The notes under the pieces were generated by a model, which saw only the letters and a list, made by a program, of their open reading frames with translations, ran no database searches and had not been told where the DNA came from. DNA of 52,797 bases from Chloroflexota bacterium (GTDB lineage: Bacteria; Chloroflexota; Limnocylindria; P2-11E), in assembly GCA_005887995.1 (NCBI GenBank), contig VBJD01000027.1, positions 1-52,797 of the forward strand, given 5' to 3'. The position numbers were made by a program, and so were the translations under genes. This document shows, piece by piece, positions 8,964 to 24,395 of this stretch (the first letter of the stretch is position 1; each line of letters begins with the position of its first letter).

Positions 8964-9757
8964 TCGGCCTCCGGCAGGTAACGGCGGACCGCGCGGACAT
9001 TCCGCTCCGGACCGAGCACGGTTCGCTCGACGACGCCGCCGCTCTGCGGCGCATGGACGAATTCACGCTCGGCGGTCGCGATGGCGACGTGTGTCACGCG
9101 CTCATCACCGAAGAAGAGGAGATCACCGGCGCGTGGGGCACCCTCGACCGCGCGACCTTCCATGGCCTGCTGATCAGCGTCACGATCAAGCGCCACCCCA
9201 TTGAGACGGTACACCAGCTGCGTGAAGCCGGAGCAATCAAGCCCGTCTACGGTCGTACCGCCCCAGAGATACGGAACGCCGAGGAAACACTCCGCCGTTC
9301 GCATCAAGTCGCCAGGCCGCGGGAAGCGGTTCGGTAGCTGCGCGATGTCGACCGTGTCACGGAACGCGAGCCATCCGTCGGCGGACACGCGCATCCATTC
9401 ACCCTGCCGTTCCTGGATCGCGAGCGGCGAACCGACGGGAAGACGATCGATGACCGGCGCGCCGTCGGTCGGCGCGCTGCGCACATCCGCAGCGACGACG
9501 CCGACGATGCGCCGCTCGGGCGCGGCGACCTCATCGAGATGCTCGGACCAGATCCAACCGAAGTAATGATCGGGACCTTGCACGAAAAGCCATTCGTCCT
9601 CGCGGCCGAGGATGACGAGGCGCTCGCCGTAGTGCGCTTGATCGACGCGCTCGGACGCGGGATCCGGCTCGGCGTGCAGATCCGCGAACCCGCGGTTCAC
9701 GAGCGCATGCGGCGGCCGCACCATCGCGACCGCTAGACGCGCCGGAGCGGTCTTCAT
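8960..9757 (-). CDS. NlpC/P60 cysteine peptidase with SH3-like domains (YkfC / dipeptidyl-peptidase VI-like)
   Basis: GVPYLWGG...DCSG, RDADQQ, THVAI, FVHA. Two SH3b-like N-terminal segments and no signal peptide. Confidence 0.88.
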   Translation of the reverse strand: MKTAPARLAVAMVRPPHALVNRGFADLHAEPDPASERVDQAHYGERLVILGREDEWLFVQGPDHYFGWIWSEHLDEVAAPERRIVGVVAADVRSAPTDGAPVIDRLPVGSPLAIQERQGEWMRVSADGWLAFRDTVDIAQLPNRFPRPGDLMRTAECFLGVPYLWGGTTVDGLDCSGFTQLVYRLNGVALDRDADQQAMEGRAVEGAPRAGDLLFFGDERVTHVAIATAEREFVHAPQSGGVVERTVLGPERNVRAVRRYLPEAE

Positions 9758-9867
9758 CTGTCGCGCTCGCTTCGGCCAGCCTTCGGCGGCCTGCAGCTCG
9801 CCGCGCGCTCCGCTGCTGCAGGACTCGCTCCTCGCGGGGGACCCGCTCGTCGCTCGATCTCTTTCAT
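9754..9867 (-). mobile_element. MIRU-like intercistronic insert with 37-aa coupling mini-ORF and ATGAA duplication
   Basis: ATG overlaps the gcvPB TGA (ATGA) and TGA overlaps the NlpC ATG (ATGA). 38 codons, open. ATGAA at both ends. Contains CGCTCGCTTCG and CTCGCTCCTCGCG..CGCTCGTCGCTCG motifs. Confidence 0.7.
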
Positions 9868-11408
9868 GCGGGCCTGTATCGCAACACGGGTTTGCGCGCT
9901 GCGCCGACCTCGTCGAGGCGACGGAGCGGCGTCTTCGTCGGCGCCTCGTGCACAGCGGCGGGATCCTTCTCGATGCGTTCGGCGATGCGGATCATCGCCG
10001 CCGCGAACGCATCGAGCGTCTCCTTGGGTTCGGTCTCCGTCGGCTCGATCATCAGCGCCTCGGGAACGATGAGTGGGAAGTACACGGTCGGCGAGTGGAA
10101 GCCCTCGTCGAGCAGCGCCTTCGAGATGTCGAGCGCGCTCGAGCCCTGCTTCTTCTGCCTCGCCGCGGTGAGGACGAACTCATGCATGCACGGCCGGTCA
10201 TACGCGACGTCGTACTTGCCACGCAGCAGCGCGAGGAGATAGTTCGCGGCGAGCACCGCGTCGCGCCCGGTCTCGACCAGCCCTTCCTCGCCGAGCGTCT
10301 TCATATAGGTATATGCACGCGCGAGCACGCCGAAGTTCCCGAGGGTCTTGCCGATCTTCCCGATGGAGTCGCCGAGGCGCTCGGGCTCGCGATCCTCGCG
10401 CGCGGTGTCGTAGTGGTAGCTGCCATCGGCCTCCTTCACGATCCACGGCTTCGGCAGGAACGGCCGTAGGTGCGCCTTCACGCAGAGCGGGCCCGCCCCG
10501 GGGCCGCCCGCGCCGTGCGGGGTCGAGAACGTCTTGTGGACGTTGATGTGTACGCAGTCGAAGCCGAGGTCGCCGGGCCGCGCGATGCCGAGGAGCGCGT
10601 TCATGTTCGCGCCGTCGCCGTACACGAGCGCGCCTACCGCGTGCACCGCATCGCACACCTCGCGCACGCGCTCCTCGAAGAGGCCGATCGTGTTCGGGTT
10701 CGTGAGCATGAAGCCCGCGACGTCCGGACCGAGCGCGCTCTTCAGCGCCTCGAGGTCGACGTTGCCACGGGCGTCGCTCTTCACCGTCGTCACTTCGTAG
10801 CCGCACATCGCGGCCGACGCGGGGTTCGTGCCGTGCGCGGAGTCGGGCACGATGATGCGCCGCCGCGTCGCGGCGTCCCCGCGCTTCTGGTGATAGGCCT
10901 TGAACATCAGGAGCGCGGTGAACTCGGACTGCGCGCCGGCCTGGGGCTGCAGCGTCACGAAATCCATGCCTGTGACCTTCAGGAGCAGCTGCTCGAGCTC
11001 GTAGGCGAGCGCGAGCACGCCCTGCGTCGTGCGGTACGACTGGCGCGGGTGCAGGTCCGCGAAGAGCGCGGCCGCACGATCGTTGATCTTCGGGTTGTAC
11101 TTCATCGTGCACGAGCCGAGCGGATACATGCCCGCGTCGACCGAGTAGTTGAGCTGCGCGAGGTGTGTGTAGTGACGGACGACTTGTGGCTCGGTGAGCT
11201 CGGGCAGGCGCAGCGGCGTCTTGCGCGCGAACTTCTCCGGCACGTCGCCGGTCTTCTCCGCGCGCACGTGACGCCCGCTCCGTCCGGGTCGCGCGAGCTC
11301 GAAGAGGAGTGGCTCGAGCGCCGGTCCGTGCGTGTCCGCGCCGGAGTCGGGTATCGTCTGCGACGCTCGCTTCGCTCGCTGAACAGGGGCCCCAGTCACC
11401 GTGGTCAT
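9864..11408 (-). CDS. gcvPB: Glycine dehydrogenase (decarboxylating) subunit 2
   Basis: YPLGSCTMKYNP, PLP-site HINVHKTFSTPHGAGGPG, PTVYFPLIV..MIEPTETE. ATG 11408 overlaps the gcvPA stop. Confidence 0.95.
   Translation of the reverse strand: MTTVTGAPVQRAKRASQTIPDSGADTHGPALEPLLFELARPGRSGRHVRAEKTGDVPEKFARKTPLRLPELTEPQVVRHYTHLAQLNYSVDAGMYPLGSCTMKYNPKINDRAAALFADLHPRQSYRTTQGVLALAYELEQLLLKVTGMDFVTLQPQAGAQSEFTALLMFKAYHQKRGDAATRRRIIVPDSAHGTNPASAAMCGYEVTTVKSDARGNVDLEALKSALGPDVAGFMLTNPNTIGLFEERVREVCDAVHAVGALVYGDGANMNALLGIARPGDLGFDCVHINVHKTFSTPHGAGGPGAGPLCVKAHLRPFLPKPWIVKEADGSYHYDTAREDREPERLGDSIGKIGKTLGNFGVLARAYTYMKTLGEEGLVETGRDAVLAANYLLALLRGKYDVAYDRPCMHEFVLTAARQKKQGSSALDISKALLDEGFHSPTVYFPLIVPEALMIEPTETEPKETLDAFAAAMIRIAERIEKDPAAVHEAPTKTPLRRLDEVGAARKPVLRYRPA
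11363..11393. repeat. Repeat core ACGCTCGCTTCGCTCGCTGAACAGGGGCCCC inside the gcvPB 5' end
   Basis: Identical 31-mer at 22208-22238; 2-mismatch copy at about 50105-50135. Confidence 0.85.
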
Positions 11409-12766
11409 CGCGCGGCCACCGTTTGACGCGAGCCGGTGATCTCGGCGACAGCGTCGACGAGCGCATCCGCGTCCGCTTCGGTCGTGAGCTCGGTGCACTG
11501 GATCATGACGTCGTCGCGACCCCGCCGCTTTCCATCGACGTAGTGCGACGCGCTCGCCTCCACCTGGATGCCGCGCTCGAGGAGCGCAAGCCGGAGGTCC
11601 CAGCCACCCATCTCGGTCGCGAGTGTGAAGCGGTCGAAGAACGTCCCGTCGTTCGCGATCCGGCAACCCGGGATCGCCGCGAGCCGCTTCGCGAGGCTGT
11701 GCGCGCGCGCGACGCCTGCCCGCGCGGCCGCGCGAACTCCCTCGGGGCCCAGCAGCGAGAGATAGATCGCGGCGTGAATGGCGGAGAGCGCCTCGTTCGT
11801 GCAGATGTTGCTCGTCGCCTTCTCGCGGCGGATGTGCTGCTCGCGCGTCTGCAGTGTGTTCACGAAGCCGCGTGTCCCGTTCGCGTCCACGGTCTGGCCG
11901 GCGATGCGCCCGGGCATCTGCCGCACGAGCGCCTCGCGGCACGCGAAGATCCCGAGGTGCGGCCCGCCGTAGGACATCGGGATGCCGAGCGGTTGCCCCT
12001 CGCCGACCGCGATGTCCGCGCCGAGCGCGCCGGGCGGCTCGAGGAGCGCACACGCGTGCGGCTCAGTGACCTGCACGAGCAGCGCGCCTGCTGCATGTGC
12101 CGCGTCGGCGATCGGCCTCACGTCGACCAGCGACCCGAACGCATCGGGATGCTGAACGACGAGGCAGGCCGCGCCGTCCGCGTTACCCGCGAGATCCGCC
12201 GTTGGCACCTCGACGATGTCGAGCTCGGCGCCTCGTGCGTACGTGCGCACCGTGCGCCGGTACGTGAAGTCGACCTCGGTCGCGAGGACGACCTTCTTCC
12301 GTCCGCTGCTGAGGCGCACTGCCATGAGCGCGGCCTCGGCGGTCGCGGACGAGCCGTCGTACATGGAGGAGTTCACGACGTCCATCGCGAGGAGCTCCGC
12401 CATCAGCGACTGGTACTCGAAGACCGCCTGTAGCGTGCCCTGGCTCACCTCGGGCTGGTACGGCGTGTACGCGGTGAGGAACTCGCCGCGCAGCGCGAGC
12501 ACCGGGACCGCCGCTGGGATGTAGCGGCGCTGGATCGCGCCGCCGATGAAGAACGGGCCCGACCCGGCGGTCTTGTTCATCGCGGCGAGCTTTTCGAGGT
12601 GCGCCTGCACCTCCTGCTCGCTCATGCCCGGGCCGACGCCGAGCTGCTTGACGCGCGCGTCCTTCGGGATCGCGGTCAGGAGGTCGTCGACGCTTCGCAC
12701 GCCGATGCGATCGAGCATCGCGGCGCGGTCGGCATCGGTGTGCGGCGAGTACGGGTTGTCGGCCAC
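11405..12766 (-). CDS. gcvPA: Glycine dehydrogenase subunit 1
   Basis: EFLTAYTPYQPEVSQGTLQ, SMYDG, QTREQHIRREKATSNICTN. Confidence 0.95.
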   Translation of the reverse strand: MADNPYSPHTDADRAAMLDRIGVRSVDDLLTAIPKDARVKQLGVGPGMSEQEVQAHLEKLAAMNKTAGSGPFFIGGAIQRRYIPAAVPVLALRGEFLTAYTPYQPEVSQGTLQAVFEYQSLMAELLAMDVVNSSMYDGSSATAEAALMAVRLSSGRKKVVLATEVDFTYRRTVRTYARGAELDIVEVPTADLAGNADGAACLVVQHPDAFGSLVDVRPIADAAHAAGALLVQVTEPHACALLEPPGALGADIAVGEGQPLGIPMSYGGPHLGIFACREALVRQMPGRIAGQTVDANGTRGFVNTLQTREQHIRREKATSNICTNEALSAIHAAIYLSLLGPEGVRAAARAGVARAHSLAKRLAAIPGCRIANDGTFFDRFTLATEMGGWDLRLALLERGIQVEASASHYVDGKRRGRDDVMIQCTELTTEADADALVDAVAEITGSRQTVAAR

Positions 12767-12767
12767 G

Positions 12768-13169
12768 CTAGGACCCGCCTGAGCCGGCCGTCTCGCCGAT
12801 GTGGGCGCGGTAGTCGTCCGCGGAGAGGAGCTTCTGCAGCTCGCCCTTGTCGGCGAGCTTCACCTTGAGCATCCAGCCTTCCTCGTAGGGCTTCTGGTTC
12901 ACGAGCTCCGGCTTCTCGATGACCTTCATGTTCCGCTCGATGACCTCGCCGGAGATCGGACTGTAGATATCGGACGCGGCCTTCACCGACTCGACGACGC
13001 CGAGACTCGAGAACTGCCGGACCGTCGCGCCCTTCTCCGGAAGCTCGACGAAGACGACGTCACCGAGCTGTTCCTGGGCGAACGCGGTGATGCCGATCGT
13101 CGCGGTGTCGCCTTCGAGGCGCACCCACTCGTGCTCTTTGGAGTAGCGCAGGTCCTGCGGAACGGTCAC
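12768..13169 (-). CDS. gcvH: Glycine cleavage system H protein
   Basis: YSKEHEWV, lipoyl motif VESVKAASDIYSP. Confidence 0.96.
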   Translation of the reverse strand: MTVPQDLRYSKEHEWVRLEGDTATIGITAFAQEQLGDVVFVELPEKGATVRQFSSLGVVESVKAASDIYSPISGEVIERNMKVIEKPELVNQKPYEEGWMLKVKLADKGELQKLLSADDYRAHIGETAGSGGS

Positions 13170-13228
13170 TTCTCACTCCTCTTGTACGACGCGGTCGCTT
13201 CGCGACCGCCCTGTACGTGCAGGGTCAT
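13166..13228 (-). mobile_element. REP/MIRU-like hairpin insert with 20-aa coupling mini-ORF (MTLHVQGGREATASYKRSEK)
   Basis: ATG overlaps the gcvT TGA and TGA overlaps the gcvH GTG. Ends are AGAAATGACC and AGAAGTGACC. Hairpin GCGGTCGC-TTC-GCGACCGC flanked by GTAC. Confidence 0.65.
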
Positions 13229-14325
13229 TTCTTGACCCTGCTGTAAAAGGGCGTCTTCACTACCGTAGCGGGAACATCCTTTTCCCGGATGCGCACGGCG
13301 AGCGCGGTCCCCACCTTGGCTAACGCTACCGGGACGTAGGCAAGGGCGATGTTCTTCTCCACGGTCGGTCCGTAGGTCCCGCTCGTCACGATGCCGACCT
13401 CCCGGCCGCCGCTCGTGACCGGATAGCCGTGGCGTGCGACGCCGCCCTCGACCACGAGGCCGGCGATCCGACGGCTCGGCCCGTCTTCCTTCGCCTTCGC
13501 GACGACGTCGCGGCCGAGGAACTCCTTATCGAGCTTGCAGGTCCATGCGAGGCCGGCCTCGATCGGATTCGTCGTCTCGTCGATCTCGTTCCCGTAGAGC
13601 GAGAAGCGCGACTCCAGGCGCAGCGTGTCGCGCGCCCCGAGTCCGATGGGCAGCATGCCATCGGCTGTGCCCGCGTCGAGGAGCGCGTCCCAGACGGCTG
13701 ACGCGAACTCGTTGCGCAGGAACACCTCGAACCCGTCCTCGCCCGTGTACCCGGTGCGCGCGATCGTCGCGGTCTTGCCGGCGACCTTCGTCTCGGCGAC
13801 GCCGAACGGCATCACGTCATCGACGTTCATGTCCGCCACACGCGACAGGATCCGCGCGGCCCGGGGACCTTGCGGCGCGATGAGCGCCGTCATCGCCGAG
13901 CCATCGAAGAAGCGAACATCGCTCGGAAGATGGCGACGCACGTGCGCCGCGTCCTTGTCGATGTTCGCCGCGTTCACGACGACCATGTACCGCTGCGGCG
14001 CCAGGCGATACACGATGACGTCGTCGACGATCGTGCCGCGCTCGTTCGTCAGCAGGCCGTAGCGCGCCTGCCCGCTTTCGAGTCCCGCGATATCGCTCGA
14101 CACGAGCCGATCGAGCGCCGGGCCCGCGCCGGCGCCCTCGAGATAGAACTCGCCCATGTGCGAGAGATCGAAGAGGCCGGCCGCGTTGCGCACGGCGCGG
14201 TGCTCCGCGACGATGCCCGAGTACTGGATCGGCATCTCCCACCCCGCGAACGGCACCAATTTCGCGCCGAGCTCGCGGTGCTTCTCGAAGAGTGGGGTCC
14301 GCTTGAGCGCGGCCTCGGTGGTCAT
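13225..14325 (-). CDS. gcvT: Glycine cleavage system aminomethyltransferase T
   Basis: LKRTPL, FAGWEMP, FDLSHMGE, RTGYTGEDGFE, GLGARDTLRLE. Confidence 0.96.
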   Translation of the reverse strand: MTTEAALKRTPLFEKHRELGAKLVPFAGWEMPIQYSGIVAEHRAVRNAAGLFDLSHMGEFYLEGAGAGPALDRLVSSDIAGLESGQARYGLLTNERGTIVDDVIVYRLAPQRYMVVVNAANIDKDAAHVRRHLPSDVRFFDGSAMTALIAPQGPRAARILSRVADMNVDDVMPFGVAETKVAGKTATIARTGYTGEDGFEVFLRNEFASAVWDALLDAGTADGMLPIGLGARDTLRLESRFSLYGNEIDETTNPIEAGLAWTCKLDKEFLGRDVVAKAKEDGPSRRIAGLVVEGGVARHGYPVTSGGREVGIVTSGTYGPTVEKNIALAYVPVALAKVGTALAVRIREKDVPATVVKTPFYSRVKK

Positions 14326-14771
14326 GGGGCGCGCGCCACCTCGAGGGCACGGTCGAGGATCTCGCGGTACGTGTCGTAGCTGAGGAGCCGGCGCGCCTCG
14401 TCGACCCGGACCCAGCGCACGTGGTCGTACTCGTGATCGTGCTGCGACACGTCTCCGCCGCGCGCACGCATGAGGAAGAAGTGCACGAACTTGTGCACGC
14501 GCTCGCCGGGCACGGCGAACCAGTAATCGATCACGCCGATCGGCGCGACGATCTCGATCTCGAGCCCGGTCTCCTCGCGGACCTCGCGCGCCGCCGTCTC
14601 CTCGATGGTCTCACCGCGGTCAGGCGTGCCCTTGGGAAACACCCACGTCCGATCGCTCTCGCGTCCCGCGACCACGACCTCGAGCGAGTCACCACTTCCT
14701 CGCACGACGACTCCTCCCGCTGCACTTGCGTCGCGGACGCGCGCTGGCCGCCGAGCGCGTGTCGTCGGCAT
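14322..14771 (-). CDS. NUDIX hydrolase
   Basis: SAAGGVV, Nudix box PKG...GETIEETAAREVREETG. RBS GGGGAGG. Confidence 0.9.
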   Translation of the reverse strand: MPTTRARRPARVRDASAAGGVVVRGSGDSLEVVVAGRESDRTWVFPKGTPDRGETIEETAAREVREETGLEIEIVAPIGVIDYWFAVPGERVHKFVHFFLMRARGGDVSQHDHEYDHVRWVRVDEARRLLSYDTYREILDRALEVARAP

Positions 14772-14807
14772 GTGAGCCTCCCCGTCAGTTGCGACGACTG
14801 TAGGACA

Positions 14808-15005
14808 AGAGCGCGCCGCGACCCGCCGGCGCGCGAAGCGGAACTCCGCGACGAGCGTTTGCGCCCAGCCGGCCCGTGCTGCCGTCGTACGGCTCGGCTT
14901 CGCCTTCGCCGGCTGCTTGGCGTGTGGCCTTCGGCCACGCCGCAGTAGCCAACAGCGAGGAGCGGAGTGCCGCTGAGAAGCGCCCTGGCGGTCGCGTCGC
15001 GCTCT
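14808..15005. repeat. About 200-bp MITE-like palindromic element, copy 1
   Basis: Imperfect terminal inverted repeats AGAGCGCGCCGCGACCCGCC / GGCGGTCGCGTCGCGCTCT. Core 14828-14984 is nearly identical (reverse complement, one 9-nt indel) to 45774-45921. Confidence 0.85.
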
Positions 15006-15780
15006 AAAGCAGGCGCGTTGTGTTGATGACGAGGGCGAAGTTGCAGTGCAGGAACTCGGCGGCGCGGCGCGACAGCATCATGCGCGGGAGGAAGATCTCG
15101 AAGTACTCCATGATCGGCGCGACCTCGGTGTCAACGGAGAGCTCGAGCGTGATCAGCTTTTCCTTCCGGCTGACTTTGATCTCCGAGGCGGTCGCCGCGT
15201 AGTTCACTCGGTCGTGGATGTCGAACGCGGTCGTCTTGGGGTTGCGCACGCGACTGCGGTGCACGTCGCTCTTGTCGGCGATGATCACCGCCGCGGATAC
15301 CGCGCTCACCGGCAGGCCGCCCTCGGCCTCCTCGTGGTTCGCGATCGCACCCATGATCACCGCGATCTCCTCGATGTCGAACCCGAGGTCCTCGAGGATG
15401 TCCTTCGCGATGATCGCCCCCGTTTGCCCGTGCTTCTCGCGGGTGACGACGTTGCCGATGTCGTGGAGGTACGCGGCGACGGCGGCGACCTCGCAGCGGC
15501 GCGGCTCGTGGCCGAGCGATTTCAGGATGAATCGCGCCCCATCGGCAGCGGTGTTCGCGTGGCGCTCGCCGTGCTCGGTGTAACCGATCGCGCCAGTCTG
15601 GGCATTCGCTGAACGGATGAACGTACGCACACGCGTGTCCGCCTTCACGAGATCGAGCGTCGGTCCCTGACGCTTCGCCTCGGCAAGCGTCTTCGTCTTC
15701 GTCTCGGTGCGATGGACCTTCTTGAGCTCGTCGGGACGACCGGTGTCGTCGCGTCGCGGGGACGGCGCTGCCTCAGCCAT
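15004..15780 (-). CDS. HD-domain phosphohydrolase
   Basis: GYTEHGERH, AYLHDIGN, IANHEE, ADKSDVHRSRVR, IHDRVNYA. ATG 15780 preceded by TAGAGT-N7. Confidence 0.88.
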   Translation of the reverse strand: MAEAAPSPRRDDTGRPDELKKVHRTETKTKTLAEAKRQGPTLDLVKADTRVRTFIRSANAQTGAIGYTEHGERHANTAADGARFILKSLGHEPRRCEVAAVAAYLHDIGNVVTREKHGQTGAIIAKDILEDLGFDIEEIAVIMGAIANHEEAEGGLPVSAVSAAVIIADKSDVHRSRVRNPKTTAFDIHDRVNYAATASEIKVSRKEKLITLELSVDTEVAPIMEYFEIFLPRMMLSRRAAEFLHCNFALVINTTRLL

Positions 15781-17968: not shown

Positions 17969-18963
17969 GCGAGTTTCAGGTCACTGCGCACCGTCGTGGG
18001 GATCTCCGTTCCGCGGTGACGCAGCACGAAGAACGCCGCTGCGCCGATCATCGCGCCGTTATCCGTGCAGAGCCGCGGCGGCGGCACGACGAGCGGACGG
18101 CCGATGCGCTTCGCGATCTCCTCGCGGAGCGCGAGGTTCGCGGCGACGCCGCCGCCGAGGAGCACCGTGTCGACGGCATGCTCGGCCGCGGCGCGCGCGG
18201 TCTTCTCCGCGAGCGTCTCGGTGATCGCCTTCTGAAAGGACGCGGCGACGTCGTTCACAGGCACCTCGCCCTTCGCCTCGAGCGAGCGCACGAGACGTTG
18301 CACCGCGGTCTTCAGCCCCGAGAACGAGAAGTCGTAGCGATCGGACACGGTCGCGCGCGGCAGCGGGAACGCGTTCGGATCGCCGGACTTCGCGGCTTTT
18401 TCGATCAACGGCCCGCCGGGGAAACCGAGCCCGAGCAGTCGCGCGACCTTGTCGAACGCCTCGCCCGCAGCGTCGTCGATCGTGCGCCCGAGCGGCCGGA
18501 AGCGGCGATGCGCCTCCATGAGCACGAGATCGCTGTGCGCGCCGGAGACCACGAGGACGATCGCGGGGAGTTCGGGCTCGCGCGGCGCGACCACGCCCTC
18601 GTACAGCCAGTTCGCGTACACGTGGCCCTCGAGGTGGTTCACGCCGACGAAGGGCAGCCCGGCCGAGAGCGCGAGACCGCGCGCGTAGTTCGCGCCAACG
18701 AGGAGGCACCCGATGAGGCCGGGGCCGACCGTCGCGGCGACCGCGTCGACGCCACGCAACTCGACGCCCGCCTCGCGGAGCGCGGTCTGCGTGATCGCAT
18801 CGAGCGAGCGCAGGTGCTCGCGCGCCGCGACCTCGGGCACGATGCCACCGGTGTCCTGGTGCGCGAGCTGCGAGGCGACGACGTTCGAGATGATGTGGCG
18901 TCCGTCGTCAACGACCGCGACGCCGGTCTCGTCGCACGAGGTCTCGATCGCGAGGATCCGCAC
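17965..18963 (-). CDS. tsaD: tRNA N6-threonylcarbamoyltransferase
   Basis: ILAIETSCDETG, GGIVPEVAAREH, NHLEGH, DDAAGEAFDK, CTDNGAMI. Confidence 0.97.
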   Translation of the reverse strand: MRILAIETSCDETGVAVVDDGRHIISNVVASQLAHQDTGGIVPEVAAREHLRSLDAITQTALREAGVELRGVDAVAATVGPGLIGCLLVGANYARGLALSAGLPFVGVNHLEGHVYANWLYEGVVAPREPELPAIVLVVSGAHSDLVLMEAHRRFRPLGRTIDDAAGEAFDKVARLLGLGFPGGPLIEKAAKSGDPNAFPLPRATVSDRYDFSFSGLKTAVQRLVRSLEAKGEVPVNDVAASFQKAITETLAEKTARAAAEHAVDTVLLGGGVAANLALREEIAKRIGRPLVVPPPRLCTDNGAMIGAAAFFVLRHRGTEIPTTVRSDLKLA

Positions 18964-19476
18964 TTATTCCTCGAGCGCTGCTTGCAGCTTCGCGAGGCGA
19001 TCGCGGACGCTGCGATCGCGGAGACGCTCGGTCCACATGATGATCGCGTCCTCGTTGTTGTCGGAGTAGTAGCGGCGGCGAATACCCGCGGGCCGGAAGC
19101 CGTACTTCTCGTACAGCCGCTGCGCCGCGAGATTCGACGCCCGTACCTCGAGCGTGAGCCACTCGGCGCCCAACCTCTGCGCGCGTTCGAAGATCGAGAT
19201 CAGCATGCGCTCGCCGATCTTGCGCCGGCGATGCTCGGGGAGGACCGCGAACGTCGTGATGTGCGCCTCGTCGAGCGAGAGCCAGAGTCCCGCGTAGCCG
19301 ACGGTGCGGTCGCCCTCACGGGCAACGATGTAATGAGCGTTCTTGTTCTGCGTGAGCTCCTGCTTGAACGCGTTCGCCGGCCAGGGCACCGGAAACGACG
19401 CGTTCTCGACCGCCTGCACCGCCGGAATGTCCTCGACCGTCATGTCGTCGATCACGATCGGAAAGAGCGCTACCAC
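18964..19476 (-). CDS. rimI: Ribosomal-protein-alanine N-acetyltransferase
   Basis: EAHITTFAV, TLEVRASN..AQRLYEKYGF, RRRYYSDNNEDAIIM. Located between tsaB and tsaD. Confidence 0.93.
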   Translation of the reverse strand: MVALFPIVIDDMTVEDIPAVQAVENASFPVPWPANAFKQELTQNKNAHYIVAREGDRTVGYAGLWLSLDEAHITTFAVLPEHRRRKIGERMLISIFERAQRLGAEWLTLEVRASNLAAQRLYEKYGFRPAGIRRRYYSDNNEDAIIMWTERLRDRSVRDRLAKLQAALEE

Positions 19477-19679
19477 TTTGTTCGCCCTTCCCGCCGACGC
19501 CGCGTCCGTCGCCTCTCACTCGGAACGCCGCCACTGGGCCCTGCTGAATGAGAGTCGGTCCGAGTGGCGGCTCGCACTCCCGTGAGCCTCGTTCGAGGCG
19601 ACCGCCGCGTCGTCGTCGTAGGCGAACTCGCGTGCCGCGCTCGTTCGGTCGCTCCGATCGCCATGTCGATTGCGCTCAT
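19470..19679 (-). other. Structured intercistronic element with 69-aa bridging ORF between tsaB and rimI
   Basis: ATG overlaps the tsaB TGA and TAG overlaps the first rimI codons. Nested stems GTTCGCC/GGCGAAC, GTCGCCTC/GAGGCGAC, GCCGCCACT/AGTGGCGGC. Confidence 0.55.
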
Positions 19680-20416
19680 GATCTTTTTGGCAACCCGAGC
19701 GCGAGGTCATCGGTGGGTGCGGGCGAGAACGGCTGATCAAAAGTCATACGGATAGACGGCTGCTTCACGTAGATCGGCTCGATCTCGCCGAGCTTCGTTT
19801 GCGGTGCGGCCTCGAGCGCCCGCCACCCCAGCTCCGCGAGATAGCCGGCGCGACGCATCCGTGACGCGGGCGACGCGAAGAGCGCCTTCGGGCCGAGGAG
19901 GTCGCGCAACAGCTGCTCCGCCTCCTCATCGATCTCGCCGACGAAGAGCGTGTGCGTGCCGATCTGCCGGCACAGCTGCGGCAGCGTCGCAGCGATGTAC
20001 GGTGAGCGACGGAGCCATTTGCGGTTCCGCTCCTGATAGATCGCCGCGTACCACTCCGTGCGACCCGCCGGCAGCAGCGCGCAGGTCCGTTGCTTCGAGG
20101 GCGCGTGCGGGTACGCGAGCACGTCCAGCGTCGAGACGCCAACGAGCGCGGCGCCCGCGCCGCGCGCGATGCCCTGCGCCGCTGCGATAGCGACGCGCAG
20201 GCCGGTGAACGATCCTGGACCTGACGCGACGGCGACGCGGTCGATGTCGGCGGCGAGGGACAGTCTCGCATCGGTGAGCATGCGCTCGATCGTCGGGAAC
20301 AGCTCATCGCCGTGACGCCGCTGCGCGTGCCACGTCGTCTCGGCGAGCACCGCGCGCCCGTCGTAGAGCGCGACAGACGCCCACGCAGTCGAGGTGTCAA
20401 GCGCCAAGAGAGTCAT
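19676..20416 (-). CDS. tsaB: t6A biosynthesis protein TsaB
   Basis: LLALDTST, GPGSFTGLRVA, EPIYV. Confidence 0.95.
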   Translation of the reverse strand: MTLLALDTSTAWASVALYDGRAVLAETTWHAQRRHGDELFPTIERMLTDARLSLAADIDRVAVASGPGSFTGLRVAIAAAQGIARGAGAALVGVSTLDVLAYPHAPSKQRTCALLPAGRTEWYAAIYQERNRKWLRRSPYIAATLPQLCRQIGTHTLFVGEIDEEAEQLLRDLLGPKALFASPASRMRRAGYLAELGWRALEAAPQTKLGEIEPIYVKQPSIRMTFDQPFSPAPTDDLALGLPKRS

Positions 20417-20903
20417 GGAACCCCCGCAGCAGCTCGCGCGACCGCGCGCCCGTCGGCTCGAGCAGCACGCGCCGCTTCGTGTCCGCGATGTGCTCGAGAT
20501 GTACGTCGAGTCGATCCGTCGGCAGCGCGTCGCCGGCGCGATCCGGCCACTCGATCACCGTGATGCCACCGCCGTCGAGCGTCTCCTCCCAGCCGGTCGA
20601 GCCGAGGTCTTGGCCTTCGAGGCGATACAGGTCGAGATGGAAGAACGGCATGCGTCCACCGTAATGCTCGCGAAGGATGATGAAGGTCGGGCTCGCGACA
20701 TCGCCGGGGTCGAGTCCGAGTCCCGCGGCGACGCCCTTCGCGAGCACGGTCTTTCCCGCGCCGAGCTCGCCCCAGAGCGCGAGGACGTCGCCCGGACGCG
20801 CGAGGCGCGCGAGCCGCTCGCCGATCCGCTCGGTGTGCAAGCTCGAATGGCTGACTAGGTCAAGCCGCTCCTCGCTCGACTTTTTGGAATCGGCGGCGCT
20901 CAA
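20397..20903 (-). CDS. tsaE: t6A biosynthesis ATPase TsaE (start uncertain, TTG 20903)
   Basis: GELGAGKT, VASPTF, HLDLYRL, VIEWP. Confidence 0.92.
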   Translation of the reverse strand: MSAADSKKSSEERLDLVSHSSLHTERIGERLARLARPGDVLALWGELGAGKTVLAKGVAAGLGLDPGDVASPTFIILREHYGGRMPFFHLDLYRLEGQDLGSTGWEETLDGGGITVIEWPDRAGDALPTDRLDVHLEHIADTKRRVLLEPTGARSRELLRGFHDSLGA

Positions 20904-21150
20904 GGATGAGCCGGATGGTAAGGCCGAGGAACGAACCCAAGAGCGCCGCCCAGACGAACATCCAGATGTCGCGCGGCAGGAAGCAGAGTGCGTCGAGCGG
21001 CGTGCCGGTACCGCAGCCAAGCGAGAACACGAGCGGCACGATCCCGAGGAGACCGATCACGTTGCGCTGGCGCTCTAGACGCCGTCGGCGTGCCGCATAG
21101 TCGAGACGCCGCTTCTCCACGTCGCGGAGGCTGCGCTTCTTCTTCGCCAT
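20860..21150 (-). CDS. Small membrane protein, 2 TM helices
   Basis: Basic N-terminus, two hydrophobic helices with a CxxxxxxxxxC loop. Coupled to the upstream gene (TGATG). Confidence 0.65.
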   Translation of the reverse strand: MAKKKRSLRDVEKRRLDYAARRRRLERQRNVIGLLGIVPLVFSLGCGTGTPLDALCFLPRDIWMFVWAALLGSFLGLTIRLILERRRFQKVERGAA

Positions 21151-22169
21151 CAGACGGGTTCAAGAGTGCGGAGGTTGCCGGTCGGTACGGTGCCCACCGC
21201 TGTTTCGAGCGCGTTCGCGACGACCTCACTGGTGAAGGTCACTTCGTGCGCCGGCGACGCCGAACCCTCGATCGGCATGACCGCGCCCCAGTCCGGCGCG
21301 AGCGCGAGCGTCGGCGCGATCGTCGGCACGGCCATGACACCCGACGACGCGAAGACGAAGAGCCGCGCAGACGCTGCGTGTATCGCGGCGCGCGCGCCGA
21401 CGAGGGGCAAGAACGGCGAGAAGACTTCGGCCGGAAGCTGCGACGTTCCGAAGCCGAGAAGGCAGAGCACCGTCGGGGTGTCGGCGACGGGCGCCGCGCC
21501 GCGCGCGGAGACCTCATCGCCGAAGAGCGTTCGGAGGCCCGCCGCGGGCACCGCACCGGTGACGATCCCGGCGACGCCGCAGGCGTGCGCGCGCGCGATC
21601 GCCTCTGCCGCGCTTCGGCCGCCGCCGATGAGGATCCGGTCACGCAAGCGGACGTCGATACGCGACGGCGCGAGCTCGTCGGCGCGGCCGTCGACGGCGA
21701 GCGTGAGCTCCCCGACCGCATCGGGCCCGTACGCGACGACGCCCTGGATCGCCCATGCCGCGCCCTCGATGGTGATCGCCCAATCCGTCGACTCCATGAC
21801 GACGCCGTCCAGGGCCGCGCGGACCGACCAGCGATCGATCACCGGCGCGAACTCGAGATCACCGTTCGCACGCACGTGGACGATCCGGCCGTCGAACGGC
21901 GCGCTCAGGGCACGCGCGAACCGGCGCCCGGTGCGCGCGATGATCGCGCCCCGCTCGAGCTCCGCACCAGGTGGCACGCGCATCACCTGCGGGAGGTCGA
22001 CCGGCGCGACGCCGAGGCGGCGCGCGCCCAAAAGACGAACGGGCTCGCCAAACGTCGTCCCATTGGCCACGACCTCGCCGGCGCGGACCCGCTGACCGAC
22101 GGCGGCACGCTGCGACGCGCCGAGCGGCAGGGATTGCCTTACACGCTGATCGGCGAAGCGCCAACTCAT
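21150..22169 (-). CDS. Conserved hypothetical protein of the type usually adjacent to GlmL-like genes
   Basis: VGQRVRAGEVVA, APFDGRI (barrel-sandwich-hybrid-like), IQGVVAYG..VGEL, ILIGGG, GVAGIVTG, LLGFG. Family assignment from recall. Confidence 0.7.
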   Translation of the reverse strand: MSWRFADQRVRQSLPLGASQRAAVGQRVRAGEVVANGTTFGEPVRLLGARRLGVAPVDLPQVMRVPPGAELERGAIIARTGRRFARALSAPFDGRIVHVRANGDLEFAPVIDRWSVRAALDGVVMESTDWAITIEGAAWAIQGVVAYGPDAVGELTLAVDGRADELAPSRIDVRLRDRILIGGGRSAAEAIARAHACGVAGIVTGAVPAAGLRTLFGDEVSARGAAPVADTPTVLCLLGFGTSQLPAEVFSPFLPLVGARAAIHAASARLFVFASSGVMAVPTIAPTLALAPDWGAVMPIEGSASPAHEVTFTSEVVANALETAVGTVPTGNLRTLEPV

Positions 22170-22170
22170 C

Positions 22171-22272
22171 TCAACCGCTCGTTGTCACTCGCGAGGAGGA
22201 CTCGCTCACGCTCGCTTCGCTCGCTGAACAGGGGCCCCTCCCCCTGAGCCGCTCGTCGCTCGACTTTCTCAT
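22171..22272 (-). mobile_element. MIRU-like insert with 33-aa coupling mini-ORF (MRKSSDERLRGRGPCSASEASVSESSSRVTTSG) and ATGAG duplication
   Basis: ATG overlaps the GlmL-like TGA and the mini-ORF TGA lies 1 nt before the next ATG. ATGAG at both ends. Contains the 31-bp repeat core. Confidence 0.72.
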
Positions 22273-23687
22273 ACCAGTCCCTCGGACGAGAGCGCGGTGA
22301 GCGCGGAGTGCCAGCGGGCGAGTGCCGGAAGTCGCTCGGCGTCACGCTGCGGCAGATCGAGCGGTCGGCCGCGCACGTCGACGATGACGCCCAGTGCGAG
22401 CGCGTCGGCGCTCGCGGTCTCCGCCGAACCGCCGACCCGGAGATCGACGCGGCCCGTCGTCGGCATGAGCAGGAACGCTCCGCGCGTGATCCGTTGCTCG
22501 ATCGTGCCGGTCGCGTCGCTCACCGTCAGCGTCATCGCACGGCGTGGCCACAACGTCATCGCGATCGCGAGCGGCTCGATACGCCCCGCGATGTCGGCGC
22601 TGCCGCGCGACGCGATCGCGCCCGCGGCGATCAGCGCATCTGGCGCCTCGCGCGAGAGGCGTGTCGTGCCGCGCGTCTCGAGGGCGTCGATCGCGACGAT
22701 CGCGCATTGCGCGGCACGCGGGAAGCGCGCGATCCGGCCGGTGCACACGATCGCGCGCGCGGCGCGGAACGGCGCGACCGAGATCCCACTGCGCTCCGCG
22801 TCGCGCAGCGTGTGTGCGACGGCCTCGCGCGCGAGCGCCATCTCGAGCGCGAGCGTGAGCGTCGTTGCGGGCACCGCGTCGGGCCAGCGCGCGCGATTGA
22901 AGACGCGTTCGAGGAGCGCCGGCCCATCGACCGCGCGCGGCACCCAGCGACGGACGCGGTCGAGCCCGGCGCGCGCGACCACGCGGTCGGCATTCGTGCC
23001 AACGCCGAGATGCGAGTGGAGCGCGATGACCGCGCCAGTAGGTGTCGCGAGCGCGAGCGACGTGCTCGCGCCGCTCACGTCCAGCACAAGCGTGTCACGC
23101 ATATCCGCGGCCGCGACCGCACGCGCCGCGCTCTCGACCGCCTCGTCGCGCAAAACGATGTCACCGGCTGGCCGGCGCATCCCGCGAAGTCGAGCGACGA
23201 TCCCCTCCCTCGCGAGAGCGGCGGTCGGTCCGGGGATCGCCTCAAGGGCGAGCGGCGCGAGGCTCGGTGCGATGCGTGCTCGGGTGCGCTCGTCGGACGC
23301 GATGAGGACGACGGGCGGTTTTGGACGGCCGGCGGTGGCGGCCCGCAGCGCTTCGACGACATCGATGACGCCGTTCTGATCGCGGCTGCCCGCGACGATG
23401 AGCACCGCATCGGGATCGGCTTCGCGGATCGCGGTCGCGCGCTCGATGAACGACTCGCGCCCGTTCGCGGCGAGCGTGAGCACGATGTCGGCGCACGCGC
23501 CAAGGGCTGCCGCGCTCGCCGCCGCGCGATCAGCGTTCTCGCGGCCGACGACGAGCGCCAAGCGAAGCGGCGTGCCGGTCCAGACGCGAAGGTCAGCGGC
23601 GTCAGTACGTGGGCCGATGCGTTTCGCGGAACCCTCGTGCGCGACGTCGACCGTGGCGACGAGCCCGGTCGCGGTCGCGACGGTCAT
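22269..23687 (-). CDS. Divergent glutamate mutase L (GlmL)-like, actin/Hsp70-fold protein
   Basis: LVLDVSGASTS (phosphate-2-like), C-terminal GVIVDVRGRPL..ERLPALARW typical of the family. N-terminal phosphate-1 motif degenerate. Confidence 0.7.
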   Translation of the reverse strand: MTVATATGLVATVDVAHEGSAKRIGPRTDAADLRVWTGTPLRLALVVGRENADRAAASAAALGACADIVLTLAANGRESFIERATAIREADPDAVLIVAGSRDQNGVIDVVEALRAATAGRPKPPVVLIASDERTRARIAPSLAPLALEAIPGPTAALAREGIVARLRGMRRPAGDIVLRDEAVESAARAVAAADMRDTLVLDVSGASTSLALATPTGAVIALHSHLGVGTNADRVVARAGLDRVRRWVPRAVDGPALLERVFNRARWPDAVPATTLTLALEMALAREAVAHTLRDAERSGISVAPFRAARAIVCTGRIARFPRAAQCAIVAIDALETRGTTRLSREAPDALIAAGAIASRGSADIAGRIEPLAIAMTLWPRRAMTLTVSDATGTIEQRITRGAFLLMPTTGRVDLRVGGSAETASADALALGVIVDVRGRPLDLPQRDAERLPALARWHSALTALSSEGLV

Positions 23688-23702
23688 TTCAACTCGCTCG
23701 GC

Positions 23703-24395
23703 TCATGTGTTCGAGCGGATCGGCGAGCGACGCGCCTCTGCCACGAACGCGTCGAAGATGCGAGCCGCTGCCTTCCCCACTTCAGCCTTTCGCTCGGGAT
23801 GCCACTGAACGCCGATGACCCAGCGGTGCGTCGGCGACTCGAACGCTTCGACGAGTCCGTCGTGCAGCACCGTCGCCCGCAGCCCGGGCGCGAGACGATC
23901 GGGCGTCACCGCCTGGTGATGGCGCGAGTTCACGAGCATGTCGTCCGTGCCGGAGAACTCCGCGAGCCTCGATCCTGCGCGCGCGGCGAGACGGTGCGGG
24001 GTGACCTGCTCGTCCTTCGCCTGATGGCCCTTCACGTCCATGGCGAGCGTGCCGCCCATGGCGACGTTGACGAGCTGGAACCCGCGGCAGATCGCGAGCA
24101 CCGGGACGTCGGCATCGAGCGCGCGACGCGCGAGCAAGAGCTCGAGCTCGTCGCGCTCAGGGATGACGTTCTCGCACAGGTTGTCGCTGTCGACCTCGCC
24201 GTAGCGGTCCGGCGCGATGTCGCCGCCGCCCGAGCAGCAAACACCGTCGATGTCGGAGGGGATCGCGTCGCCCGGCTCGATCACGATGACGTCCGCGCCG
24301 GCGTCGCGCAGCGCGTCGATGTAGCGCTGGCGCGCCGCGAGGTTCGCCGGCGTGCGTACGGCCGAGACGGTGAGGGCGATCCGGGGCCGTGACAT
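23703..24395 (-). CDS. Peptidase C26 / gamma-glutamyl-GABA hydrolase family glutamine amidotransferase
   Basis: SGGGDI, VLAICRGFQ, VNSRHHQAV, GVQWHPE. ATG 24395 preceded by TAGCAT-N7. Confidence 0.92.
   Translation of the reverse strand: MSRPRIALTVSAVRTPANLAARQRYIDALRDAGADVIVIEPGDAIPSDIDGVCCSGGGDIAPDRYGEVDSDNLCENVIPERDELELLLARRALDADVPVLAICRGFQLVNVAMGGTLAMDVKGHQAKDEQVTPHRLAARAGSRLAEFSGTDDMLVNSRHHQAVTPDRLAPGLRATVLHDGLVEAFESPTHRWVIGVQWHPERKAEVGKAAARIFDAFVAEARRSPIRSNT

What the first reader, a model, noticed from the sequence alone, without database searches (positions are those of the whole stretch)
9754..23706. Short inserts at stop/start junctions that keep translational coupling through their own mini-ORF (MIRU-like relay)
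Seen: several gaps inside co-directional operons are spanned end to end by an open mini-ORF that starts on the upstream stop and ends on or beside the downstream start. Cases: gcvPB>nlpC 9754..9867 (ATGA...ATGA, ATGAA at both ends); gcvT>gcvH 13166..13228 (TGACC at both ends); glmL-like>partner 22171..22272 (ATGAG at both ends); tsaB>rimI 19470..19679; C26>glmL-like 23689..23706 (MSRAS); also oppB>oppC 3013..3078 and a minimal ATG-AGA-TGA at 994..1002. Removing the insert plus one duplicated copy restores a plain ATGA overlap at the gcvPB/nlpC, gcvT/gcvH and glmL-like/partner junctions. Several share CGCTCGCTTCGCTCG or CGCTCGTCGCTCG motifs. Known: mycobacterial MIRUs have this architecture. 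Inference: a non-autonomous mobile repeat family targets, or survives only at, coupled junctions in this lineage and may tune subunit stoichiometry.
Basis: partly seen in the sequence, partly recalled or inferred. Interest (0 to 1): 0.8.

Follow-up and report, generated by a model that had tools for sequence, protein, structure and literature searches.

The report
MIRU-like repeats at gene junctions
An uncultured soil Chloroflexota lineage carries its own family of small hairpin repeats that have inserted again and again exactly where one gene's stop overlaps the next gene's start, often leaving a tiny open reading frame that bridges the two genes, as mycobacterial MIRUs do.

Summary
All seven mini-ORFs exist at the stated coordinates. 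Two of them (9754-9867, 22171-22272) are copies of a real, modular repeat family: a 32-nt "head" hairpin, interchangeable hairpin tails and a nested 39-nt module. Relatives have plain ATGA/GTGA/TGATG junctions at these sites, and the same junctions were hit independently in other species. The inserts are flanked by 4-15-nt duplications ending at the TGA. They run with the genes in 37 cases and against them in 11. They carry a bridging ORF far more often than other spacers (14 of 25 against 18 of 395). The head occurs in all 49 other sampled genomes of one Limnocylindria family and only as chance-level matches in the rest of the class. No HUH transposase or reverse transcriptase was found in 26 congeners. 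The gcvT>gcvH, opp and tsaB>rimI inserts have the same architecture but belong to other or single-copy sequences, and 994-1002 is trivial. The architecture is MIRU-like and the sequence is unrelated to anything found elsewhere. A translational relay is plausible but untested; the frame statistics are only weakly above a by-product model.

The parts
9754..9867 (-). Family element at gcvPB>NlpC/P60: head hairpin about 9824-9855, tail B about 9763-9804, bounded by ATGAA on both sides. The mini-ORF has 37 codons and runs from the upstream ATGA to the downstream ATGA.
   Evidence: Relatives: 18 of 24 readable loci have a plain ATGA/GTGA overlap (one of the 18 is the unpublished G032). A contig of soil run X2 spans it with 0 differences.
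22171..22272 (-). Family element at the glmL-like>partner junction: left half of the head about 22249-22263, nested 39-nt module about 22203-22246, right half of the head plus tail A about 22171-22207. ATGAG lies at 22272 and at 22169. The mini-ORF has 33 codons.
   Evidence: Relatives have GTGA, ATGA, TGATG or TAAGTG in all 7 of 11 loci that I could resolve, and TGATG in G009.
11358..11399 (-). Nested 39-nt module inserted in frame into the N-terminus of GcvPB. The true start is the ATG at 11408, which overlaps the gcvPA stop.
   Evidence: G003, G014 and G009 lack it, and the reading frame is kept.
7611..7690 (+). Family element (head 7611-7642 plus a tail) lying opposite to the flanking minus-strand genes, inside the 181-nt spacer 7548-7728.
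   Evidence: The G003 spacer is 115 nt and lacks it.
50100..50141 (-). Copy of the nested 39-nt module inside the predicted coding region 49558-50346.
   Evidence: Not compared with relatives.
23689..23706 (-). A 15-nt insert between two ATGA, carrying a 5-codon mini-ORF. It may be a remnant of a family element.
   Evidence: Relatives have a TTGA or GTGA overlap. A 23-nt deletion derivative lying in tandem with a full unit in G003 shows that such remnants arise.
13166..13228 (-). Single-copy hairpin insert at gcvT>gcvH, with TGACC at both ends and a 20-codon mini-ORF from ATGA to GTGA.
   Evidence: Fold z-score -3.5. G003 has ATGA and G009 has GTGA here, and G014 carries a head-family element at this same junction.
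19470..19679 (-). A 199-nt insert at tsaB>rimI with a 69-codon bridging ORF. Its part at about 19508-19606 has 3 other copies in the genome (a separate small family).
   Evidence: G003 and G014 have TGATG here, and no clear flanking duplication is seen.
3000..3078 (-). Single-copy insert of about 66 nt at oppB>oppC, flanked by an 11-nt direct repeat that contains the stop and the start. Two successive mini-ORFs (3078..3013 and 3011..3000) lead to the GTG at 3000.
   Evidence: z-score -3.2. G003 has its stop and start 2 nt apart.
994..1002 (-). A two-codon frame between a TGATG and an ATGA. It is an ordinary short spacer, not an insert.
   Evidence: G003 also has a short spacer here.

Best explanation
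The inserts at 9754-9867 and 22171-22272 are copies of a lineage-specific family of small structured repeats of 25-110 nt. Other junctions of this genome carry further copies. Each element has a 32-nt head hairpin, one of several hairpin tails and sometimes a 39-nt module nested in a hairpin loop.

Shown. The family is dispersed, with roughly 45 heads and 46 copies of the nested module in this 3.0-Mb genome bin. It is shared by a whole family of Limnocylindria. Copies have entered sites where stop and start overlap or abut, immediately after the TGA, together with a duplication of the 4-15 nt that end at that TGA. The upstream gene therefore keeps a stop and the downstream gene keeps a start. 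Copies mostly lie in the direction of transcription. Tandem units and internally deleted remnants occur. No transposase of the usual kinds accompanies them.

Inferred. The left copy of the duplication leaves an orphan start on the upstream stop, and the right copy leaves an orphan stop on the downstream start. Because the element has few stops, a mini-ORF often runs from one to the other. Ribosomes that finish the upstream gene could restart on it, unwind the hairpins, terminate at the next start and restart again, so that coupling survives the insertion. This is how MIRUs are thought to be tolerated. I put the structural account at about 0.85 and an actual relay at about 0.4. How the elements move is unknown; it probably depends on host replication or recombination.
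For: Family. The two window inserts are built of modules with many strong matches elsewhere in the genome, for example 62-nt matches at 95% identity. Of 1698 intergenic regions, 199 share sequence with another one, and the largest cluster holds 76. There are 29 heads with the standard 8-nt spacer, about 27 of them true by eye. Fourteen more have the 44-nt spacer produced by the nested module, and a few have the 80-nt spacer.

Context. Elements in co-directional spacers run with the genes in 37 cases and against them in 11 (p 2e-4). The upstream stop is a start-like NTGA in 25 of 37 family junctions, against 134 of 659 non-repeat spacers (p 3e-9). Bridging ORFs occur in 14 of 25 family spacers against 18 of 395 others.

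Empty sites. At sequence level, 14 junctions that are filled in some genome are overlapping or at most 2 nt apart in relatives, while 37% of all co-directional pairs are that tight. Inside this assembly, C174 differs from C199 by 84 nt plus a 5-nt direct repeat.

Recurrent hits. The gcvPB>NlpC/P60 junction carries six different inserts among 24 congener loci. Five of the six keep a bridging ORF, a two-ORF relay or an in-frame extension; I read these frames by eye from the sequences printed. The gcvT>gcvH junction is filled in the window and, by a head element, in G014. The pheS/pheT-like junction is filled in G000 and, in the opposite orientation, in G014.

Structure. In 34 elements from other genera, 98% of cells pair and 8 of 16 pairs show compensatory changes, a level reached by 0 of 500 shuffles. 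One pair is G-U in 31 of 34 sequences, and the tandem G.A mismatches likewise fit only the sense strand.

Distribution. The head is present in 49 of 49 other genomes of family f1. In families f3-f5 it appears only as 0-3 two-mismatch hits per genome. In 185,579 species genomes there are 42 exact matches, 38 of them in Chloroflexota/Limnocylindria bins.

Literature. The MIRU architecture was taken from review passages.
Against: The relay itself is untested. Only 15 of 37 same-orientation junctions meet my bridging criterion, although some misses come from mis-called starts such as 22169.

Frame preference is weak. The distance between the orphan start and the downstream start is 2 mod 3 in 13 of 25 cases (p 0.04). 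The mini-ORF stops at the element's end in 7 of 12 head-plus-tail-C elements (p 0.07).

The Shine-Dalgarno comparison gives only a trend. Downstream starts have a median of -3.8 kcal/mol and orphan starts -5.9 kcal/mol (n=15, p 0.10).

The elements do not fold better than shuffled sequence (z-scores 0.09 and -0.22).

Elements also lie in opposite, divergent and convergent contexts.

Three further junctions could be judged only from alignment coordinates. One of them (C212) seems to have a 10-44-nt spacer in three relatives, and another (C99) has about 0-1 nt in two relatives but 25-43 nt in two others.

Most of the 14 junctions were chosen because they had bridging ORFs, which favours an overlapping ancestral state. 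All context statistics rest on my own crude gene caller and on one 87%-complete genome bin.
Confidence: 0.7

Rival explanations
1. By-product. The elements are selfish or neutral. A mini-ORF appears automatically because the duplication that spans the junction leaves a spare start and a spare stop, and 69% G+C DNA has few stops. The downstream gene initiates on its own, and no relay is used or selected.
For: With ATGA on both sides, one spacing in three gives a bridging frame, and about half of 100-nt frames are open at this composition (my arithmetic from the composition). The observed excess over that model is small (9 of 15, p 0.03; 7 of 12, p 0.07). The head is read in all three frames in different copies, so no peptide is conserved. 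Twenty-two of 37 same-orientation junctions do not bridge, and these have the stronger Shine-Dalgarno sites (median -6.2 kcal/mol).
Against: Shuffling the spacer interior while keeping the ends and the length gives about 5 of 25 bridging cases against 14 observed. Reversing the interior gives 5 of 25. Five of six independent inserts at one junction keep the coupling, read by eye. The units of the tandem array in G003 are each ATGA-coupled. At the C198 junction the left copy of the duplication differs from the right copy and from relatives by one base, and that base creates the orphan ATG.
Confidence: 0.35
2. Cis-acting RNA hairpins. The elements are kept because, in the mRNA, they act as intercistronic stabilisers, processing sites or translation dampers, as REP/BIME and ERIC elements do. 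The ORF is incidental.
For: The hairpins covary and fit the sense strand only, through G-U and G.A pairs. Elements run with transcription in 37 of 48 cases. Sense strands fold better than antisense strands (-45 against -39 and -37.6 against -28 kcal/mol). The single-copy inserts are strong hairpins (z-scores -3.2 to -3.9).
Against: Folding energy is no better than that of shuffled sequence for the family elements. Rfam gives no match. Presence varies between close species at the same junction, which points to gain and loss rather than a conserved function. Covariation among copies can also reflect a structure needed for spread.
Confidence: 0.15
3. Classical non-autonomous transposon: a MITE, or a REPIN moved in trans by a transposase or a RAYT.
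For: Filled and empty sites exist with short direct repeats, four of them of 5 nt in this genome. The family is dispersed, with tandem and nested copies. G000 has one IS110-type and one TnpB-like gene.
Against: No terminal inverted repeats were found. The flanking duplications are of variable length: 4, 5, 5, 5, 5, about 7, about 9 and 15 nt in G000 (the 5-nt set includes the single-copy gcvT>gcvH insert), and 14 to about 50 nt in another genus. Y1/HUH and RVT_1 are absent from 26 of 26 congeners. DDE_Tnp_1 is absent from G000. The IS110 gene lies beside a tRNA fragment, not beside a family copy. Metagenome bins often lose mobile genes, so these absences are soft.
Confidence: 0.1
4. For the three non-family cases only (13166-13228, 3013-3078, 994-1002): ordinary spacers whose open frames arise by chance or from local duplication.
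For: They have no other copy in the genome. Non-repeat spacers of 40 nt or more bridge at the shuffled rate. The 994-1002 case also has a short spacer in G003.
Against: Relatives have ATGA or GTGA at gcvT>gcvH, and a 2-nt gap at opp. The window inserts are strong hairpins flanked by 5-nt and 11-nt duplications of the junction. This is the same architecture as in the family.
Confidence: 0.3

Closest known systems
Mycobacterial interspersed repetitive units (MIRUs; Supply et al. 1997, known to me only through passages of PMC12548453 and PMC3184786)
   Same: Units of tens of bases up to about 100 nt, with tens of copies. They lie between genes of operons and in the direction of the genes. Filled and empty sites exist, with short direct repeats. 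The ORF inside the unit overlaps the stop and start of the neighbouring genes with ATGA-type spacing. Tandem units occur. No transposase is known.
   Different: A different phylum, and no sign of shared sequence: the head pattern matched only Chloroflexota-type bins among 185,579 species genomes, although I made no direct alignment to a MIRU. Differences seen here are the mosaic of a common head with alternative tails, a nested 39-nt module, hairpins with tandem G.A mismatches, and flanking duplications of variable length (4-15 nt here, up to about 50 nt in another genus).
REP/BIME and REPIN elements of proteobacteria
   Same: Short structured repeats, mosaic combinations of modules, often inside transcribed intercistronic spacers, and able to affect the mRNA.
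   Different: No RAYT/Y1 gene was found (0 of 26 genomes). The copies lie flush with stop and start codons, with a junction duplication and a bridging frame, neither of which is a feature of REPs (recalled).
Rickettsia palindromic elements (RPE; recalled, no call)
   Same: The nested 39-nt module lies in frame inside coding regions. The GcvPB N-terminus is confirmed against three relatives, and 12 of 46 hits lie in predicted coding regions.
   Different: This applies to the nested module only. The head-tail elements avoid coding sequence. The 3 of 31 head hits that fall inside predicted genes lie 15, 37 and 376 nt from the gene's 3' end, and I take at least the first two for gene-call overrun.
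MITEs (for example Correia, RUP, MITEAba12)
   Same: Small, non-autonomous and dispersed, with filled and empty sites.
   Different: No terminal inverted repeats, no fixed duplication length, and no parent insertion sequence found.

Membership tests
MIRU-like intercistronic repeats (architecture) | Short unit (about 40-100 bp) repeated tens of times in the genome | tested here: met
   Units are 25-110 nt, with about 45 heads and 46 copies of the nested module.
MIRU-like intercistronic repeats (architecture) | Lies between co-directional genes and in their orientation | tested here: met
   Same orientation 37, opposite 11 (p 2e-4). There are also 14 divergent and 6 convergent contexts.
MIRU-like intercistronic repeats (architecture) | An ORF within the unit overlaps the stop of the upstream gene and the start of the downstream gene | tested here: met
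   14 of 25 family spacers of 40-130 nt, against 18 of 395 controls. It is not universal: 15 of 37 overall.
MIRU-like intercistronic repeats (architecture) | Filled and empty sites with short direct repeats | tested here: met
   The repeats are 4-15 nt and end at the TGA.
MIRU-like intercistronic repeats (architecture) | Tandem arrays of units | tested here: met
   Two units at C117; arrays in L129, L130, L131 and L133; a remnant plus a full unit in G003.
MIRU proper (descent) | Sequence related to the mycobacterial consensus and presence in Mycobacterium | tested here: not met
   The exact head pattern was found only in Chloroflexota-type bins, apart from 4 stretches in bins with other labels, among 185,579 species genomes. 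No direct alignment to a MIRU was made.
MIRU-like (function) | Downstream translation depends on translation of the mini-ORF | not testable with these tools
   Only indirect frame and Shine-Dalgarno trends are available.
REPIN/REP | A cognate RAYT (Y1/HUH) gene in the genome | tested here: not met
   PF01797 gave 0 hits in 26 genus genomes, 6 of them at least 90% complete.
MITE | Terminal inverted repeats | tested here: not met
   Neither window element has terminal inverted arms; one has a terminal direct repeat.
MITE | Target duplication of fixed length | tested here: not met
   4-15 nt in G000 and 14 to about 50 nt in genus g14.
Retro-element (SINE-like, target-primed) | A reverse transcriptase in the lineage | tested here: not met
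   PF00078 gave 0 hits in 26 genus genomes.

The most novel reading that the evidence does not exclude
A class of elements without a transposase that home to the RTGA stop/start overlap of translationally coupled genes and carry their own relay frame. The insertion would be silent at first, and its length and hairpins could later set how many ribosomes reach the downstream gene. Finding it in Chloroflexota, independently of MIRUs, would make 'coupling-preserving insertion' a general strategy of bacterial selfish DNA. It would also point to an unknown host-driven integration mechanism: a cut or template switch placed precisely after the TGA, with a variable second boundary.
Probability: 0.25. 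Interest if true: 0.8.

Novelty: new variant of a known kind. Interest (0 to 1): 0.62.

Why it matters
MIRUs have so far stood alone as repeats that insert at start codons and stay coupled to the gene. A second, unrelated family with the same hallmarks in a distant, uncultured soil lineage suggests convergent evolution of a way to insert into operons without breaking them. It offers many natural filled/empty pairs for testing how termination-reinitiation tolerates 25-200-nt structured spacers. It also poses a concrete mechanistic question: what places DNA exactly after the TGA of a gene junction when no transposase is present? On the practical side, the repeats break metagenome assemblies at these junctions. 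They also mislead gene callers: open frames run through them, and one module sits in frame in GcvPB.

Tried and rejected
- **nhmmer on short tails.** Searches started from single short tails found nothing for tails A, B and D, so I used blastn-short and patterns instead.
- **Loose two-block pattern.** The wide-spacer version was as noisy as its control (144 control hits against 242), so only the 8-, 44- and 80-nt spacer classes were used.
- **Built-in control.** It is uninformative because the pattern reads the same backwards.
- My pattern was one letter short and found nothing. It was corrected.
- **Rfam.** No match at gathering thresholds over the window, or at E<=1 over 22100-22330.
- **Stops in all three frames before the downstream start.** All three frames are closed in 6 of 36 family junctions against 20 of 575 controls. 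This is enriched but far from general.
- **Shine-Dalgarno comparison.** It gave a trend only.
- **Public runs.** Nineteen soil DNA runs hold at least half of the sampled words and one RNA run holds a fifth. When laid on the window, contigs mostly stop at the repeats, and the RNA contigs cover only gene interiors, for example 21778-22013. This gives no information on transcription across the inserts and no clean empty allele.
- **Self-comparison of the assembly.** It gave one usable filled/empty pair (C174/C199). C107/C133 is an unrelated indel.
- **IS110 gene.** Its link to the repeat cluster came through tRNA-like sequence, so the cluster of 76 holds at least 5 false members.
- **Three further junctions (C99, C212, C163).** I searched for them in five relatives, but the sequence-level comparison was not done. 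Only rough spacer estimates from alignment coordinates are given.
- **Tools and sources not used.** Supplements of papers were not consulted. Supply et al. 1997 was not read; its content comes from passages in two reviews.

Full report
**What is there.** The window is 69% G+C, and the genes between 1 and 27 kb lie on the minus strand. All seven mini-ORFs exist as described. The nearest named relatives are 'Candidatus Limnocylindria' and Chloroflexota genome bins, so the lineage is not actinobacterial. The genome (G000) has 231 contigs, 3.02 Mb and 86.7% completeness.

**A real, modular repeat family.**
- *Matches:* a short-word BLAST of the junction inserts against the genome shows that 22171-22272 and 9754-9867 are built of modules. 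These modules recur on many contigs, for example as 62-nt matches at 95% identity.
- *Modules:* by eye the elements have a common 32-nt head and one of several tails. In many copies a 39-nt module is nested in the head loop, or in a tail loop in either orientation.
- *Clustering:* I called genes with a codon log-odds model of my own (2958 genes, 89% coding). An all-against-all comparison of the 1698 intergenic regions found 199 that share sequence with another region. The largest cluster holds 76 regions, at least 5 of which joined falsely through tRNA-like sequence.
- *Head counts:* there are 29 heads with the standard 8-nt spacer, about 27 of them true. Fourteen more have the 44-nt spacer produced by the nested module, and a few have the 80-nt spacer.
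- *Window members:* 7548-7728 (opposite orientation), 9758-9863, 11268-11404 and 22032-22268.
- *Other cases:* the 19470-19679 insert belongs to a separate cluster of 5 regions. The 13166-13228 and 3013-3078 inserts have no partner.

**Context.**
- *Orientation:* relative to the element, the 76 regions are co-directional same-sense in 38 cases, co-directional antisense in 14, divergent in 14, convergent in 6 and at contig ends in 4. A second scoring of the 52 co-directional regions gave 37 same, 11 opposite and 4 unclear (p 2e-4).
- *Boundaries:* same-sense elements start 0-10 nt after the upstream stop and end just before the downstream start.
- *Upstream stop:* it is an NTGA whose NTG could serve as a start in 25 of 37 cases, against 134 of 659 non-repeat spacers of 40 nt or more (p 3e-9).
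- *Non-coupled contexts:* there the 3' end of the element usually abuts CTAG, in 9 of about 10 cases by eye.
- *Bridging ORFs:* I required a start within -4 to +10 of the upstream stop and a stop within -10 to +4 of the downstream start. Such ORFs occur in 14 of 25 family spacers of 40-130 nt and in 18 of 395 non-repeat spacers. Shuffled interiors give about 5 of 25, and reversed interiors give 5 of 25.
- *By orientation:* 15 of 37 same-sense elements bridge (13 of 20 with a spacer of 135 nt or less), against 1 of 11 antisense.

**Empty sites and recurrent hits.**
- *glmL-like>partner:* 7 of 11 congener loci could be resolved, and all are compact (GTGA twice, ATGA once, TGATG three times, TAAGTG once). 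G009 has TGATG.
- *gcvPB>NlpC/P60:* 18 of 24 readable congener loci have a plain ATGA or GTGA, one of them in the unpublished G032. Six carry other inserts. Reading the printed sequences by eye, four of the six have a bridging ORF or a two-ORF relay, one is an in-frame 12-codon extension and one does not bridge.
- *Three syntenic regions fetched:* G003, G014 and G009. The tsaB>rimI junction is TGATG in G003 and G014. The C26>glmL junction is TTGA or GTGA.
- *gcvT>gcvH:* this junction is ATGA or GTGA in two relatives, and G014 carries a head element there.
- *Window junctions that are plain:* the NlpC>next junction is a plain GTGA in the window but holds a head-plus-tail-B element in G003. The rimI>tsaD junction holds a tail-like hairpin in G009 only.
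- *Five more G000 junctions:* at C217, three relatives have GTGA or ATGA. G003 has a 23-nt internally deleted unit in tandem with a full unit, each ATGA-coupled.
- *C198:* TAATG, TGATG or an abutting TAG-ATG in four relatives, and an antisense element in G014.
- *C104, C194 and C124:* C104 has GTGA in 5 of 5 relatives. C194 has GTGA or ATGA in 4, and a different 35-nt insert in G002. C124 has ATGA or TTGA in 5 of 5.
- *Within the assembly:* C174 and C199 are two versions of one locus that differ by 84 nt plus a 5-nt direct repeat containing the start codon.
- *Overall:* 14 junctions examined at sequence level were overlapping or at most 2 nt apart when empty, while 37% of the 1980 co-directional pairs are that tight.
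- *Caveats:* most of these junctions were picked because they bridge. Three further junctions could be judged only from alignment coordinates. For C99 the spacer is about 0-1 nt in two relatives and 25-43 nt in two others, with the site filled in G014. For C163 it is about -13 to 17 nt, and for C212 about 10-44 nt.

**Flanking duplications.**
- *In G000:* the repeats flanking the inserts are 4, 5, 5, 5, 5, about 7, about 9 and 15 nt long (the 5-nt set includes the single-copy gcvT>gcvH insert). All of them end at the TGA or just after it.
- *In another genus of the family:* they reach 14, 18, 22 and about 45-50 nt. They then duplicate the C-terminus of the upstream gene, so the right-hand copy ends at the original stop/start overlap.
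- *What this means:* the variable length, the lack of terminal inverted repeats and the lack of the usual enzymes argue against a classical transposon or a REPIN. Y1/HUH and RVT_1 were found in 0 of 26 congeners, and DDE_Tnp_1 is absent from G000. One boundary is precise and the other variable, which would fit a nick or a template switch after the TGA. That is inference only.

**Structure.** I aligned 34 head-plus-tail-C elements from other genera and bins. The predicted head hairpin has C:G pairs separated by tandem G.A mismatches, and a second hairpin forms in the tail. Of all cells, 98% pair, and 8 of 16 pairs show compensatory changes, a level reached by 0 of 500 shuffles and by no slid control. 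The sequences were chosen with a pattern that partly constrains two of the pairs. A pair that is G-U in 31 of 34 sequences, together with the G.A pairs, fits the sense strand only. The folding energy of the two window elements is no better than that of shuffled sequence (z-scores 0.09 and -0.22). The single-copy inserts are strong hairpins (z-scores -3.2 to -3.9).

**Distribution.** The head pattern, allowing up to 2 mismatches, occurs in all 49 other sampled genomes of family f1 (five of them unpublished), with 2-41 hits each. In families f3-f5 it appears only as 0-3 two-mismatch hits per genome. An exact version matched 42 stretches in 185,579 species genomes. Thirty-eight lie in Chloroflexota/Limnocylindria bins and 4 in soil bins with other labels, which are probably mis-binned.

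**Does the relay work?** Nothing here shows it directly. In its favour are the excess of bridging frames, the coupling kept by different inserts at one junction, and the ATGA-coupled tandem units. A further point is the logic that a 4-5-nt duplication leaves the original ribosome-binding site with the orphan start and not with the displaced gene start. The measured trend agrees but is not significant: median -5.9 kcal/mol at orphan starts against -3.8 kcal/mol at downstream starts (n=15, p 0.10). Against it, the frame preference is weak (13 of 25 and 7 of 12), many copies do not bridge, and a by-product model explains a good part of the signal.

**Cases outside the family.** The gcvT>gcvH and opp inserts are single-copy hairpins flanked by 5-nt and 11-nt junction duplications. 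They are absent from relatives and show the same architecture with a different sequence. The tsaB>rimI insert has three other copies and no clear duplication. The 23689-23706 insert may be a remnant. The 994-1002 frame is an ordinary spacer.

**Comparison with what is known.** According to passages of two reviews, MIRUs are 40-100-bp units that insert at start codons so that their ORF is coupled to the gene at -4 spacing. They have tetranucleotide direct repeats and known filled and empty sites. Every architectural feature is met here, and descent from MIRUs is not. Full-text searches for MIRU-like elements in Chloroflexi and for repeats in Limnocylindria found nothing relevant.

**Limits.** The analysis rests on one incomplete genome bin, my own gene calls, relatives that are not independent of one another, and a non-random choice of junctions. 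There are no expression data across the inserts.

Noticed in passing
window 11358-11399 and 50100-50141; G000 genome-wide: The nested 39-nt module behaves as an element of its own. Twelve of its 46 profile hits lie inside predicted coding regions, in both orientations. In GcvPB it adds 13 in-frame codons that three relatives lack. This recalls the Rickettsia palindromic elements.
   Followed up: partly
window 14706-15003 and 45664-45964: A second, unrelated repeat family: 113-nt arms at 96% identity, 18 intergenic regions in its cluster, and 22 BLAST rows on about 14 contigs. Conserved, mutually complementary outer arms enclose a variable centre, which looks like a structured RNA or a MITE. 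It has no Rfam match.
   Followed up: partly
G000 non-repeat co-directional spacers of 15-40 nt: Short spacers outside any detected repeat also show an excess of bridging mini-ORFs: 52 of 268 against 28.6 +/- 3.6 after shuffling, with a maximum of 38. Some of them may be remnants of elements, like 23689-23706.
   Followed up: no
G000 C205 against C220, and contig ends generally: Two contigs carry the same locus with one or two nested copies of the 39-nt module. Many contigs end inside family elements, and contigs of public soil runs also stop there. The repeats fragment assemblies and vary within the population.
   Followed up: partly
G000 C217:6990-7095 and its orthologues: In most congeners examined, a further gene of about 1.2-1.4 kb lies between the two genes that flank this element. 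G000, G003, G014, G016 and G008 lack it. In G002 family elements sit on both sides of that gene.
   Followed up: partly
G000 C191:3411-3860 and C221:26224-26343: These are the only transposase-like hits found in the genome: an IS110-type gene next to a tRNA fragment, and a TnpB-like zinc-ribbon match. Neither lies beside a family repeat.
   Followed up: partly
loci L154, L159, L174, L186: Exact head matches occur on contigs of soil bins labelled Acidiferrales, Udaeobacter and Bathyarchaeia. These contigs are probably mis-binned Limnocylindria DNA, so the repeat could serve as a lineage marker.
   Followed up: no
loci L128 and L132 (genus g14): At one orthologous junction in two species, about 45 nt encoding the C-terminus of an upstream gene that looks like an acyl-CoA dehydrogenase (judged by eye, no search) is duplicated on both sides of the element. 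The two copies have since diverged, so this is an old insertion that both species share.
   Followed up: no
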